DNA from: Escherichia coli
GTDB taxonomy: Bacteria; Pseudomonadota; Gammaproteobacteria; Enterobacterales; Enterobacteriaceae
NCBI RefSeq assembly: GCF_009931435.1
Contig: NZ_CP043414.1
Length of the DNA stretch: 64,000 nt
Strand: one strand, 5' to 3'
The position numbers are program-made. Positions within the stretch are counted from its first letter, which is position 1. Every line of letters begins with the position of its first letter. Of the stretch, positions 15,001-18,000 are shown one piece after another.

Positions 15001-18000
15001 ATGATTTTGTAGCGATGAGGTTGATGAGATGATTAACTGGCCCTGGTGTTTTTTTTCTCAGAGCAAGGCTCTTTTCAGAAAAAGCGTGATGATTGGTTCT
15101 GGTGTTTTGATTCAGATGAGGTTTACGTTATCGATGGTTAATCGCTTTTATGGTGCGTAGTGAAACGTAACATTTTCAGGATGAGAAAATCGATTCTGAT
15201 GTTAGTGGTTTTTGTTCTTGGGGTGGGGTTATCTGTAAACAGGTTTTAAACGCGCTATTCGGCTCTGTGATTGAGTTGTGTGGTTAAGCTATAGGTTTTG
15301 GTGTTGTTGTTGATTCACAGCGCCAGAAATCGTTCTGATTGCGTTTTTGATGTTTTGTTTGCACGTTCTGTTGATCCGTTTCCCTTCTGACTTTTCTCGT
15401 CGTCCATGCCGTTTTTAAATTCATTTGCTGTTGTTGTGTTTTTTTACCATCTTTTCGTTTGTAGGGGATTCCATTTTTATCCGGAGTAGGTTGTGTTGCT
15501 CAATGGTGGGAGTTCGTAAAGTTTTACCGCGGTGATTAATGATGTGAAGTCAATCCAAATCAATGGAGATCTCTCATCATGAATCAACCAATACACAATG
15601 CTTACTGGTTATCCCGTTTTGAAAGTATTCTCAACAGTGCCCTGGCGCAACACCGTGCCGTCTCGTTAATCCGGGTGGATTTACGTTTCCCTGAGTATAT
15701 GCCTGCCACCATTATGGATACCGATTTAGATTCAGCGGTGATTTCTCGTTTTTTCGAATCCCTGAAAGCAAAAATTCAGGCTTACCAGCGACATAAACGA
15801 CGTGCCAACAAGCGTGTGCATGCAACCACTCTGCGTTATTTCTGGTGCCGGGAGTTCGGCAAGGAAAAAGGCAGGAAACATTATCACGTGATATTACTGC
15901 TCAACAAAGATACCTGGTGCTCGCCAGGGGATTTCACCGTTCCTTCTTCGCTGGCGACGCTGATCCAACTGGCATGGTGCAGTGCTCTGCATCTTGAGCC
16001 CTGGCAGGGTAATGGACTGGTTCATTTTTCCAGGCGGACGCCTTTCCGTAAACCGACATCATCCGATGCTCGCCCTTCTTCCGATGACACGCCTTTACCT
16101 GGTGGATGTTCTGATACCCGGAAGGATTCTGACAAAAAGTCTGGTGGATCCGCTGTGCTCTGGATCAAGCGTGGTGATGTAGAAGCGATGCAGAAAGCCA
16201 TGGAGAGAGCCCGTTATCTCGTGAAGTATGAGACGAAGCAGCATGACGGTTCTGGTCAACGTAATTATGGTTGCAGTCGTGGAGCGGGGCGTCTACTGGA
16301 TGGCAGGTGAACCCTGTAAAACGGCATCCGGTGCCTGAGCGTATGCCACGGTAGGGCGTCAGCCAACGCCCTTACCTCGTATTCTGATCACTCATTCTGA
16401 AGTCATGCAACGGTATTTTTATCTGCTTCCGCTCTTGGAAACACTCCGTCGGTAAAAACTTACCGCCTTGATTAATGATGTGAACCGAAGTCAACGGAGG
16501 TCATTCACCTTAAACCCACCTCAGGAATTTTACACCTGTCAGGTCTCCTGACTGTCCTGGCATACGACATCTGCCATCCCCGGTTCCACGGTTATTACAT
16601 CAACAACCTCTGTACACGACGCCTTCAGTTTCACAATACGCTCGTCTTTCGCTGGCGGGGATGCGTCGTGCGTTTCTATATGGAGCATATCTTATGAATG
16701 GTATCCCTCATTTCGACTATAGCCTGGCGCCCTTCTGGCCGTCTTATCAGAACAAAATCATCGGTGTTCTCAACCGTGCGCTGCGTGAACAGTCCTGCTC
16801 CCGGGTACGGCGGATCCTGCTTCGTCTGCCATGTGAATATGACACTACCTTCAGTAGCAGAAAGACCTGGTTTGGTATGGACTTTATCGAAACTGTCAGT
16901 GCGCTGATGAATGCAAACCCCGGACGTGATCTCTGCTGGCTCCTGACTCGTCATCCGGAAAAGCCGGAATACCACGTGGTGCTGTGCGTCAGACAGGAGT
17001 ATTTCGACGGCCCCGAACTGGATCGGTTGATACTGGATGCCTGGAGCAACGTACTGGGCTTCGCGTCACCGGGTGAAGCGGCACCGTACCAGAAGCAGAT
17101 AACACGGGATGTGGTGCTGGACAGTCGTTCACCGGACTGCGAAGACATCCTCAAAGAGCTGATATGGGCATTCAGTGATTTCGCCCGCGATCGTCGTGGT
17201 GTGCGCGATCCGGAAGCCCGTTACCTCGTCGGTAATCCCTGGTATCCCGTAGCAGGCCAGCTCTGAAAGCACAGTTCAGCAGATTCACCCGCATTTGCCC
17301 AACCTTCATAAATCTCACAAAGGACATTCTGACCATGTTGACCACAACAAGCCACGACAGCGTATTGCTGCGTGCTGACGATCCCCTGATCGACATGAAC
17401 TACATCACCAGTTTCACCGGTATGACCGATAAATGGTTTTACAAGCTGATCAGTGAAGGCCATTTTCCTAAACCCATCAAACTGGGTCGCAGCAGCCGCT
17501 GGTACAAAAGCGAAGTGGAGCAGTGGATGCAGCAGCGAATCGAGGAGTCACGAGGAGCTGCTGCATGAAACGTGTTGTAATACCGGTACGCTGGCGATGT
17601 GCAAAATGCCGGCGCTGGTATTGTGGAAATCAGCCCTGTCCCTGGTGCTGGCGACACTCTCGTTCATCTTTCTGCTGATACCCTCCTGTCAGTAGCGGGT
17701 TGTAGCTCTTCCCTGACCGATTTGTCATTCCACTCTTATTGTTTATAACGGGTATTGAGCCGGTACTGGCGTGTTTTCCTGCATGTTTGCACCGGTTCAG
17801 TAAAATTCAACAGGATTCGAAAAGGAACATTTCGTGCAAATAACCGAAGCATTACTTTCAGAGCCAGGGGAAATCCGGCGTTTTGTTCAGCAGGCGGTGG
17901 ATCACTGGCCGCATCTGTTGGCATTTCACTTCACGCTCCATTCGGCTGAAGAAAACATCAACGGGCAACGGGTTCAGACATTCTGTACTTCCTTTTACCG

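What the first reader, a model, noticed from the sequence alone, without database searches (positions are those of the whole stretch)
15524..16500. Shared 16-bp motif upstream of both Gp2-like paralogs
TGATTAATGATGTGAA occurs at 15533-15548 and again at 16469-16484, each within a longer similar stretch (TTACCGC..TGATTAATGATGTGAA..GTCAA..GGAG) upstream of a Gp2-like gene. This suggests duplicated promoter/operator regions and common regulation of the tandem paralogs.
Basis: seen in the sequence. Interest (0 to 1): 0.35.

Follow-up and report, generated by a model that had tools for sequence, protein, structure and literature searches.

The report
Shared upstream block of Rep-like paralogs
A 16-base sequence inside a conserved block of about 70-90 bases sits in front of two anciently duplicated Rep-like (YagK/YfjJ) genes of an E. 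coli genomic island and stays almost unchanged across many genomes, so it is very probably a working control or recognition site, although what binds it is unknown.

Summary
TGATTAATGATGTGAA occurs exactly twice (15533, 16469, same strand), inside a 25-nt stretch with 23 identical bases and a collinear 70-nt alignment that scores far above shuffles. Gene 1 (15579-16310) is a YagK/YfjJ "inovirus Gp2" protein with an HUH-nickase fold and intact HUH and Tyr motifs. Gene 2 (16694-17266) has no Pfam hit but is a remote homologue (hhalign 98.5%) that has lost both catalytic motifs.

This is not a recent segmental duplication: the proteins share about 16% identity and the two copies do not evolve in concert. 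Each block travels with its downstream gene in about 1,900 E. coli genomes. The 16-mer is 3-9 times less diverse than third codon positions, so it is under purifying selection.

Function remains inferred. No good sigma-70 promoter lies on the gene strand in both copies, and copy 2 sits 210 nt before its gene. In copy 1 the motif also pairs with the start-codon region (z about -3.5), but copy 2 has no such structure.

Best reading (about 0.45): a shared protein-binding operator or control region that co-regulates the two units. Main rival: a recognition site for the HUH proteins. The finding is ordinary in kind and uncharacterised in detail.

The parts
15493..15578 (+). Conserved block 1: the non-coding stretch directly before gene 1. 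Identity among variants rises from about 0.6-0.7 to at least 0.94 from here on.
   Evidence: Conservation profile of 38 distinct loci; per-site diversity.
15496..15522 (+). Weak sigma-70-like promoter candidate TTGCTC-N15-TAAAGT, present in copy 1 only. Its -35 element coincides with the left edge of block 1.
   Evidence: PWM scan: score 4.5, top 0.7% of window positions. The hexamers are retained in the variants. This is inference only.
15513..15530 (.). Imperfect palindrome TTCGTAAA-GT-TTTACCGC abutting the motif. Its arms match 7/8 in most variants and 8/8 in L138 and L140.
15524..15548 (+). Copy 1 of the 25-nt core TTACCGC-NN-TGATTAATGATGTGAA. The 16-mer is at 15533-15548.
15531..15589 (+). 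Hairpin or inverted repeat in which the 16-mer pairs with the start-codon region (15571-15586). The Shine-Dalgarno GGAG (15565-15568) lies inside it.
   Evidence: RNA fold -20.4 kcal/mol, z -3.68. Two other natural variants give z -3.2 and -3.9. No covariation is seen.
15579..16310 (+). Gene 1: 243-aa YagK/YfjJ ('inovirus Gp2 family') protein with an HUH-nickase fold. The HYH and Y-L-V-K motifs are intact.
16350..16376 (+). GC-rich hairpin after gene 1, terminator-like but with a weak U tract.
   Evidence: Fold of 16311-16400. The L004 orthologue has a perfect 11-bp stem, z -3.3. The consensus terminator scan did not call it.
16425..16516 (+). Conserved block 2. It is the only part of the gene1-gene2 spacer shared by most island variants.
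   Evidence: Most of the 2882 E. coli places match only query positions 26-117, which are window 16425-16516. There are 43 distinct variants; diversity profile.
16449..16466 (.). Imperfect palindrome TCGGTAA-AAAC-TTACCGC abutting the motif.
   Evidence: variants.
16460..16484 (+). Copy 2 of the 25-nt core. The 16-mer is at 16469-16484.
16496..16512 (+). Vestigial Shine-Dalgarno and start region, GGAG-N10-TTA here and CTG in most variants. It is homologous to the gene-1 GGAG-N10-ATG. No conserved ORF follows.
   Evidence: Alignments; in-frame stops in L003 and L004.
16517..16693 (+). Fast-evolving leader between block 2 and gene 2. It exists in at least two versions that BLAST cannot align.
   Evidence: Diversity is 0.278 here against 0.030 in the 16-mer.
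16694..17266 (+). Gene 2: 190-aa remote YagK/YfjJ homologue with both catalytic motifs lost (EYHV instead of HYHV; SDFARD in place of Y-L-x-K).
   Evidence: No Pfam, NCBIfam or PHROG hit. hhalign 98.5%, E 2.1e-15. The distant relatives P0198 and P0202 carry PF11726. Motif alignment.
17335..17568 (+). AlpA-family HTH (excisionase/regulator type), always downstream of gene 2.
   Evidence: Pfam PF05930 2e-10; synteny.
17834..18382 (+). 182-aa protein, probably of the UCP030791 family. It is the fourth gene of the conserved cassette.
   Evidence: The orthologous genes in L258-L260 carry PF27752. The window copy has no direct hit.
15521..15548 (-). Minus-strand sigma-70-like match at copy 1: -35 TTCACA (complement of TGTGAA), 16-nt spacer, -10 TAAAAC.
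   Evidence: PWM score 8.3, top 0.06% of window positions. This is a consensus match only.
16457..16484 (-). Minus-strand sigma-70-like match at copy 2: -35 TTCACA, 16-nt spacer, -10 TAAGTT. The variants keep TAnnnT at this position.
   Evidence: PWM score 8.0, top 0.07%; variants.

Best explanation
The two copies are descendants of one ancestral 5' control region of a YagK/YfjJ (HUH Rep-like) gene. It was duplicated with the gene long ago and kept by selection in front of both paralogues.

Most likely the 16-mer and the palindrome next to it form a protein-binding operator at the DNA level. A factor encoded in the same four-gene cassette would bind both sites. Candidates are the AlpA-type HTH, or the HUH-fold proteins themselves, including the catalytically dead gene-2 product. 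Binding would couple expression of the Gp2-like gene (15579-16310) to that of the gene2-alpA-UCP030791 unit (16694-18382).

In copy 1 there is probably a second layer. If transcription starts at the weak TTGCTC-N15-TAAAGT promoter, the motif lies at the very 5' end of the mRNA and pairs with the start-codon region, burying the Shine-Dalgarno sequence and the AUG.

Shown: homology of the two blocks, their fixed linkage to the downstream genes, and purifying selection. Inferred: protein binding, the identity of the binder, the direction of regulation, and the transcription starts.
For: 1. Specific extended similarity. 23 of 25 bases are identical, and a collinear 70-nt alignment scores 42 against 16.7 +/- 2.2 in shuffles.

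2. The downstream genes are ancient paralogues: about 16% identity, hhalign 98.5%. The DNA identity therefore cannot be leftover neutral similarity.

3. No concerted evolution. In L129 copy 1 reads TGATGAAT.. and copy 2 reads TGCTTAAT.., and each copy keeps its own flanks in all loci.

4. Purifying selection.
- Copy 1: diversity is 0.039 in the 16-mer and 0.013 from the motif to the ATG, against 0.104 at third and 0.039 at second codon positions of gene 1, over 34 distinct sequences.
- Copy 2, in 7 loci retrieved through the protein and so unbiased for the block: 0.030 in the 16-mer, against 0.273 at third positions, 0.115 at second positions and 0.278 in the adjacent leader.

5. Each block goes with its downstream gene.
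- Copy 1 is found only before the 243-aa gene type: 2499 places in 1872 genomes, all annotated 'inovirus Gp2 family protein'.
- Copy 2 is always before gene2-alpA, whether gene 1 is the 243-aa type or the unrelated-looking 188-aa YagK type.
This is the behaviour of a 5' control region.

6. A palindrome with 7-8 of 8 matching arm positions abuts the motif in both copies.

7. The left edge of block 1 coincides with a -35-like TTGCTC.

8. The copy 1 hairpin is strong in three natural variants, z -3.2 to -3.9.
Against: - No sigma-70 promoter on the gene strand is shared by both copies. The consensus scan gives 0 sites, and the best shared PWM hit is on the opposite strand.
- Copy 2 is 210 nt from its gene. 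In the 188-aa-type islands it starts about 30 nt after the preceding stop codon, so it may sit inside an operon transcript rather than at a promoter.
- The 16-mer is not itself dyad-symmetric.
- The left arm of the palindrome varies without compensation in copy 2 variants.
- Outside the 16-mer and the roughly 30 nt after it, block 2 is not clearly more conserved than synonymous sites.
- No binding, transcription-start or expression data exist for this locus in the literature I could search.
- The block is absent from more distant YagK-AlpA cassettes and from K-12 yfjJ and yagK. It is therefore a lineage-specific solution, not a family-wide one.
Confidence: 0.45

Rival explanations
1. The block is the DNA recognition site of the HUH proteins: an origin-like or nick-site region made of a hairpin-forming palindrome, the conserved 16-mer just 3' of it, and short A-ended 5-mers. 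The Gp2-like nickase would bind and perhaps cut there. It might replicate or mobilise the excised island, and as in many Rep systems it might autoregulate its own gene. The dead paralogue would keep only the binding function.
For: - The HYH and Y-x-x-K motifs are intact. Pfam REP_ORF2-G2P and PHROG 'replication initiation' hits agree.
- The block lies directly next to the gene, on the same strand in both copies, and the palindrome immediately precedes the conserved single-sequence stretch.
- The run after the motif reads GTGAA-GTCAA-TCCAA-ATCAA in copy 1 and GTGAA-CCGAA-GTCAA in copy 2.
- Promoter evidence on the gene strand is poor.
Against: - Copy 2 is equally conserved in islands whose upstream gene is the 188-aa YagK type (about 16% identical to the 243-aa type) and that lack copy 1. 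The site therefore does not co-vary with the active nickase; it goes with the dead paralogue.
- Two direct nick sites 936 nt apart should promote loss or amplification of the segment between them. Yet no recombinant block with a copy-1 left flank and a copy-2 right flank, and no tandem array, was seen among about 150 loci.
- Tandem Repeats Finder does not call the 5-mers.
- The bases just before the 16-mer, where a phiX174- or pC194-like CTTG would lie, vary freely.
Confidence: 0.2
2. The shared element works as RNA: a sequence in the 5' leader of both mRNAs that is recognised by an RNA-binding protein, an sRNA or an RNase. The island encodes a ProQ/FinO-family protein. In copy 1 the element would also act as the anti-start arm of a translation-blocking hairpin.
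For: - The copy 1 hairpin sequesters the SD and the AUG, at -19 to -21 kcal/mol and z -3.2 to -3.9 in three variants.
- In the 188-aa-type islands block 2 starts about 30 nt after a stop codon with no terminator, so it is probably transcribed within an operon.
- The orientation relative to the genes is always the same.
- A ProQ/FinO gene lies in the cassette neighbourhood.
Against: - Copy 2 has no significant structure, z -1.2 to +1.1. The fold is therefore not the shared feature.
- There is no covariation. 0 of 22 pairs change on both sides, and every change that does occur breaks a pair.
- No Rfam family matches at E up to 1.
- The window holds no complementary sequence other than the start-codon region in cis.
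- The ProQ/FinO gene is frameshifted in this strain.
Confidence: 0.15
3. The conserved core is a promoter reading the opposite way: -35 TTCACA (the complement of TGTGAA), a 16-nt spacer, and -10 TAAGTT or TAAAAC. At copy 2 it would give an antisense transcript into the 3' end of gene 1. At copy 1 it would give a divergent transcript into the 1.4-kb unannotated region.
For: - It is the best sigma-70 match shared by both copies, with scores 8.0-8.3 in the top 0.06-0.07% of all window positions.
- TGTGAA is invariant, and the -10 position keeps TAnnnT in all copy 2 variants listed (TAAGTT, TAAGGT, TAGATT, TAAAGT, TAGTTT).
Against: - The consensus scan with stricter rules does not call it.
- The copy 1 -10 lacks the final T.
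- No conserved ORF or RNA family lies downstream on the minus strand.
- This reading leaves the strong conservation of the 30 nt on the other side of the motif (GTCAA...CGGAGATC) unexplained.
Confidence: 0.1
4. The similarity is a functionless relic of duplication, gene conversion or mosaic recombination between island variants.
For: - Block 2 contains a decayed SD and start codon (ATG changed to CTG or TTA), so part of it is a genuine relic.
- The islands are mosaics with sharp identity breaks at the block edges.
- The outer parts of block 2 are not clearly more conserved than synonymous sites.
Against: - The 16-mer is 3-9 times less diverse than third codon positions and less diverse than second positions in both copies.
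- The proteins have diverged to about 16% identity.
- The copies in one genome differ at positions where orthologues agree, so there is no conversion.
Confidence: 0.07

Closest known systems
Rep-binding elements of HUH replication initiators that double as operators of the rep promoter (AAV p5 RBE, geminivirus iterons, pMV158 RepB direct repeats plus nick hairpin). Recalled from established literature, not tested here.
   Same: A short conserved DNA block lies directly 5' of a gene for an HUH-fold protein. A palindrome sits next to a conserved stretch and short repeats. Autoregulation by the encoded protein is plausible.
   Different: No nicking, replication or binding is known for any YagK/YfjJ protein. 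The block is duplicated in front of a catalytically dead paralogue and does not co-vary with the active one. The sequences are not similar to any known origin.
[quoted passage not shown] It loads an antiterminator (PMC7969949).
   Same: An AlpA-family HTH is encoded in the same cassette. One short element is shared by two transcription units. A terminator-like hairpin (16350-16376) lies between the two units.
   Different: The ABE sequence is absent. No -35/-10 pair brackets the motif on the gene strand. The E. coli protein is a 77-aa excisionase-type AlpA whose targets are unknown.
Translation-occluding 5'-UTR hairpins (anti-SD / anti-start structures).
   Same: In copy 1 the motif pairs with the AUG region and the SD lies inside the hairpin, with strong z-scores.
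   Different: There is no covariation, copy 2 does not share the structure, and the transcription start is unknown.
YagK/YfjJ ('inovirus Gp2') plus AlpA core modules of integrase-borne genomic islands (E. coli CP4-57 and CP4-6, Shigella SRL PAI, Pseudomonas tmRNA islands; 10.1101/2024.08.29.610337, PMC6980539).
   Same: The same gene families occur in the same neighbourhood, and their function is uncharacterised everywhere.
   Different: The block is confined to the Escherichia-type cassette gene1-gene2-alpA-UCP030791. It is absent upstream of K-12 yfjJ and yagK and of the Brenneria, Providencia-like and other cassettes examined.

Membership tests
Sigma-70 promoter on the gene strand | -35 and -10 hexamers with a 16-18 nt spacer, present in both copies | tested here: not met
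   The consensus scan finds 0 sites in 14800-18000. In the PWM scan only copy 1 has a weak TTGCTC-N15-TAAAGT (top 0.7%). Copy 2 has nothing at the homologous place.
Transcription-factor operator | Dyad or direct-repeat symmetry of the conserved core | tested here: inconclusive
   A palindrome with 7-8 of 8 matching arm positions abuts the motif in both copies. The 16-mer itself is asymmetric, and one palindrome arm drifts in copy 2 variants.
Transcription-factor operator | Sequence-specific binding by a regulator, with an effect on transcription | not testable with these tools
   Needs EMSA or footprinting and reporter assays.
AlpA-binding element (P. aeruginosa type) | GGGACG-N5-GGTA located between -35 and -10 | tested here: not met
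   The motif from PMC7969949 was compared by eye with both blocks. Only GGGATG-N1-(C/G)GTA is present in copy 1, with the wrong spacing and no bracketing hexamers.
HUH Rep origin / nick site | Adjacent gene encodes an HUH endonuclease with intact metal-binding HUH and catalytic Tyr | tested here: met
HUH Rep origin / nick site | Inverted repeat or hairpin next to a conserved nick sequence, plus iterons | tested here: inconclusive
   The palindrome followed by the conserved 16-mer is present. The 5-mer run is not detected as a tandem repeat.
HUH Rep origin / nick site | The site co-varies with its cognate Rep | tested here: not met
   Copy 2 is unchanged behind two gene-1 types that share only about 16% identity.
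HUH Rep origin / nick site | Strand-specific cleavage and replication or mobilisation | not testable with these tools
   Biochemical and in vivo assay needed.
Known RNA family (Rfam 15) | Covariance-model match | tested here: not met
   No relevant match at E up to 1 in 10000-24000.
Structured cis-regulatory RNA leader | Stable structure shared by both copies and supported by compensatory changes | tested here: not met
   Copy 1 z is -3.2 to -3.9 but copy 2 z is about 0. 0 of 22 pairs show a double-sided change.
YagK/YfjJ (PF11726) membership of gene 2 | Significant match to the family profile | tested here: met
   There is no direct Pfam hit. However, hhalign of the gene-2 family against YagK/YfjJ gives 98.5% probability, E 2.1e-15, over 159 columns. 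The relatives P0198 and P0202 carry PF11726.
Recent segmental duplication | DNA similarity continues through the duplicated genes | tested here: not met
   The alignment ends at 15589 / 16520. The proteins give BLASTP E 0.027 and about 16-21% identity.

The most novel reading that the evidence does not exclude
The block is the long-sought DNA target of the YagK/YfjJ HUH proteins, a core but functionless-on-paper gene family of integrase/AlpA genomic islands. The active Gp2-like nickase and its catalytically dead paralogue would both recognise palindrome + TGATTAATGATGTGAA. The dead copy would have been domesticated as a repressor.

In the extreme version, the two direct sites 936 nt apart bracket a Rep-only unit. 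That unit could be rolled out as a small circle, or used to start replication of the excised island.
Probability: 0.15. Interest if true: 0.65.

Novelty: new member of a known kind. Interest (0 to 1): 0.35.

Why it matters
YagK/YfjJ 'Gp2-like' genes next to alpA are among the most widespread core genes of enterobacterial and Pseudomonas genomic islands. These islands often carry defence, virulence or resistance cargo. Nothing is known about what the proteins do.

A short, strongly constrained DNA element linked to two paralogues, one active-looking and one catalytically dead, gives a concrete handle. It can be used directly as an EMSA or nicking substrate and as a reporter target. That would settle whether these proteins are island replication or mobilisation initiators, or regulators of the AlpA switch.

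As a piece of regulation it is otherwise an ordinary conserved upstream element.

Tried and rejected
1. Searching for the motif beyond E. coli.
- The genome-contig scan with the gene-2 protein returned only 2 loci.
- A 14-mer scan of viral contigs returned 120 chance matches and one real E. coli-like locus, L059.
- The word-based and full HMMER searches show that gene 2 is essentially confined to Escherichia, with two 33-35% relatives.

2. Looking for a counterpart of the motif upstream of other YagK-type genes.
- K-12 yfjJ and yagK have none.
- The distant cassettes L132-L137 have none.
- The 188-aa type has inverted fragments (CATCATTAA, GTTCACA), but these vary among orthologues, so I treat them as chance.

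3. An upstream ORF starting at the vestigial CTG of copy 2. It is open through to gene 2 in L002 but interrupted by stop codons in L003 and L004 and out of frame in the window, so it was rejected.

4. Homology of the 180-nt leader to any Gp2-type protein. None was found.

5. Fur, CRP, IHF and phiX174/pC194 nick-site resemblances, noticed by eye. The critical positions (second CRP half-site, CTTG before the motif) are not conserved among variants, so these were rejected.

6. Correlation between the motif variant (TGATT or TGCTT) and the AlpA allele. The same AlpA protein occurs with both variants.

7. Recombinant or tandem forms that would show recombination between the two copies. None was found.

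8. PADLOC. No defence-system match for the cassette proteins, apart from a weak PDC-M06B hit for AlpA (4.8e-5).

9. Literature. No functional study of YagK/YfjJ or of this element was found.
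Full report
OBSERVATION

The 16-mer TGATTAATGATGTGAA is at 15533-15548 and 16469-16484 on the + strand and nowhere else in the 64-kb window. 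With up to three mismatches there are five matches against 0.74 expected. One of these is an imperfect inverted copy at 15571-15586, which covers the gene-1 start codon.

TTACCGC-NN-TGATTAATGATGTGAA has 23 of 25 bases identical. A 33-nt direct repeat shows 85% identity, with 936 nt from start to start. The best local alignment runs 15516-15589 against 16452-16520 and scores 42, against 16.7 +/- 2.2 in shuffles.

By my own arithmetic an exact 16-mer repeat somewhere in 64 kb is expected about once by chance. The case therefore rests on the extended collinear similarity, the position and the conservation, not on the 16-mer alone.

Copy 1 ends 30 nt before the gene-1 ATG. Copy 2 ends 210 nt before the annotated gene-2 ATG.

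CONTEXT

The window is an E. coli chromosomal island. In closely related genomes the island fills the selC site, with tRNA-Sec and an integrase about 37 kb away. The window itself holds no tRNA.

The finding lies in a four-gene cassette.
- Gene 1 (15579-16310) is a YagK/YfjJ 'inovirus Gp2 family' protein (PF11726 4.5e-37, REP_ORF2-G2P 4.7e-9).
- Gene 2 is 16694-17266.
- An AlpA-type HTH is at 17335-17568.
- A probable UCP030791-family protein is at 17834-18382.

Gene 2 has no Pfam, NCBIfam or PHROG hit. Its family nevertheless aligns to YagK/YfjJ with hhalign probability 98.5%, E 2.1e-15, and its only distant relatives carry PF11726. It has lost the first His of the HUH motif and the catalytic Tyr. 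'Two Gp2-like paralogues' is therefore right, with the qualification that the second is a very remote and probably inactive one.

DISTRIBUTION

The copy 1 region occurs at 2499 places in 1872 of 5426 complete E. coli genomes, always under a Gp2-family gene. The copy 2 region occurs at 2882 places in 1877 genomes. In most of them only window positions 16425-16516 are alignable.

In every locus inspected, copy 2 lies between gene 1 and gene2-alpA. This holds whether gene 1 is the 243-aa type, which has copy 1 upstream, or an unrelated-looking 188-aa YagK type, which does not. Each block thus travels with its downstream gene.

A profile of the block finds at most two copies per locus. It finds none in K-12 yfjJ or yagK, nor in the more distant YagK-AlpA cassettes.

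SELECTION

For copy 1 I used 34 distinct sequences that were not selected on the motif. Diversity is 0.039 in the 16-mer and 0.013 between the motif and the ATG. It is 0.104 at third and 0.039 at second codon positions of gene 1. Upstream of about 15493 identity collapses to 0.6-0.7.

For copy 2 I used seven loci retrieved through the gene-2 or gene-1 protein. Diversity is 0.030 in the 16-mer, 0.125 in the next 32 nt and 0.156 in the 35 nt before the core. It is 0.273 at third positions and 0.278 in the rest of the leader. The leader exists in at least two versions that BLAST cannot align.

The outer parts of block 2 are not clearly more conserved than synonymous sites. The core clearly is.

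The two copies do not evolve in concert. In L129 copy 1 reads TGATGAAT.. and copy 2 reads TGCTTAAT.., and each lineage keeps its own flanks. With proteins at about 16% identity, this excludes a recent segmental duplication and points to retained function.

MECHANISTIC CLUES

(a) Promoters. The consensus scan finds none. A PWM scan finds a weak gene-strand candidate only in copy 1: TTGCTC-N15-TAAAGT, whose -35 element sits at the left edge of the conserved block. The best match shared by both copies is on the opposite strand: TTCACA-N16-TAAAAC or TAAGTT, in the top 0.06-0.07% of window positions.

(b) Palindrome. An imperfect palindrome, (G)CGGTAAA-N2-4-TTTACCGC, abuts the motif in both copies.

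(c) Hairpin. In copy 1 the motif pairs with the start-codon region and encloses the SD. The fold is -19 to -21 kcal/mol with z -3.2 to -3.9 in three natural variants, but there are no compensatory changes. Copy 2 has no significant fold.

(d) Vestigial start. Copy 2 carries a decayed homologue of the gene-1 SD and start: GGAGATCATTCAYC-CTG (TTA in the window) against GGAGATCTCTCATC-ATG. No conserved ORF follows it.

(e) Terminator-like hairpin. A GC-rich hairpin follows gene 1. In the 188-aa-type islands block 2 starts about 30 nt after the stop codon, with no hairpin.

(f) Rfam. No family matches.

INTERPRETATION

The most economical reading (about 0.45) is a shared DNA-level control site. 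An operator-type element would be retained from the ancestral 5' region and bound by a cassette-encoded protein. It would couple the Gp2-like gene to the gene2-alpA unit, with an added translation-blocking hairpin in copy 1.

The main rival (about 0.2) is that the block is the recognition site, origin- or nick-like, of the HUH proteins themselves. This fits the fold of gene 1 and the architecture of palindrome plus conserved stretch. It is weakened because copy 2 does not co-vary with the active gene-1 type, and because no recombinant or amplified forms were seen.

Three further readings remain:
- an RNA-level element, about 0.15;
- opposite-strand promoters, about 0.1;
- a functionless relic, about 0.07.

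The operator and HUH-site readings are not mutually exclusive, because many Rep proteins autoregulate through their own binding sites (established knowledge, not tested here).

COMPARISON AND NOVELTY

The closest known things are:
- Rep-binding elements that double as operators;
- the P. aeruginosa AlpA-binding element, whose sequence GGGACG-N5-GGTA is not present here (PMC7969949);
- anti-start mRNA hairpins.

I found no published work on YagK/YfjJ function or on this element. The family is only listed as a core gene of AlpA/integrase islands.

The finding is a new, uncharacterised member of a familiar class: a conserved upstream cis-element shared by paralogues. Its interest is modest. Its main value is as an experimental handle on a widespread gene family of unknown function.

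Noticed in passing
window 14058-15495: A 1.4-kb stretch with no annotated gene and no ORF above 46 aa lies just upstream of block 1. It is AT-rich (31-40% GC) and strongly strand-skewed (T- and G-rich on the + strand). It is conserved at 80-90% identity in about 1585 E. coli genomes. It could be an H-NS-silenced spacer, a long leader or a non-coding RNA.
   Followed up: partly
window 16694-17266: Gene 2 ('hypothetical protein' in RefSeq) is a remote YagK/YfjJ homologue that has lost both the HUH histidine and the catalytic tyrosine. It looks like a pseudo-enzyme paralogue that is always paired with alpA. Apart from two 33-35% relatives, the family is confined to Escherichia.
   Followed up: yes
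window 16517-16693: The leader between block 2 and gene 2 comes in at least two versions of similar length (about 165-180 nt) that BLAST cannot align. Only the first 23-30 nt and the last 15-19 nt are shared. This is a sharply bounded variable segment between two conserved ones.
   Followed up: partly
window 18384-18725 (-): A ProQ/FinO-family gene sits next to the cassette. It is frameshifted in this strain and intact (114 aa) in other islands such as L256. No RNA partner was identified.
   Followed up: no
L257 2485-2510 (E. coli PI24): An IS1 element has inserted inside copy 1 and removed the first six bases of the 16-mer (AATGATGTGAA remains). The Gp2-family gene behind it is intact. This is a natural motif knock-out strain.
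   Followed up: no
L134 2899-2914 and 3749-3764 (Brenneria): A perfect 16-nt inverted repeat, CATCATGACAATCTCC / GGAGATTGTCATGATG, links the region upstream of the YagK-like gene with the SD and start codon of alpA. A different cassette lineage therefore also shows long-range complementarity to a start region.
   Followed up: no
window 19619-28800: Downstream of the cassette lie an H-NS paralogue, a dGTPase-family gene (frameshifted in FORC 064, intact in strain 98193), IS3, thymidylate synthase, an XRE regulator and a MazG-like gene. A type I R-M system with a DEAD/DEAH helicase and an AAA ATPase follows at 29010-37814. This is a nucleotide-metabolism and defence-like cargo region.
   Followed up: no
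window about 41600-60000: This part does not match the related selC islands. It matches a Tn21/Tn3-type resistance region instead (merA, IS1326, TnsB-like, Tn3 transposase; TEM-1 in one matching record) at 100% identity to plasmid and chromosomal records. The island therefore carries a strain-specific resistance insertion.
   Followed up: partly
literature lead, not in the window: [quoted passage not shown] I did not check whether this is the same cassette type.
   Followed up: no
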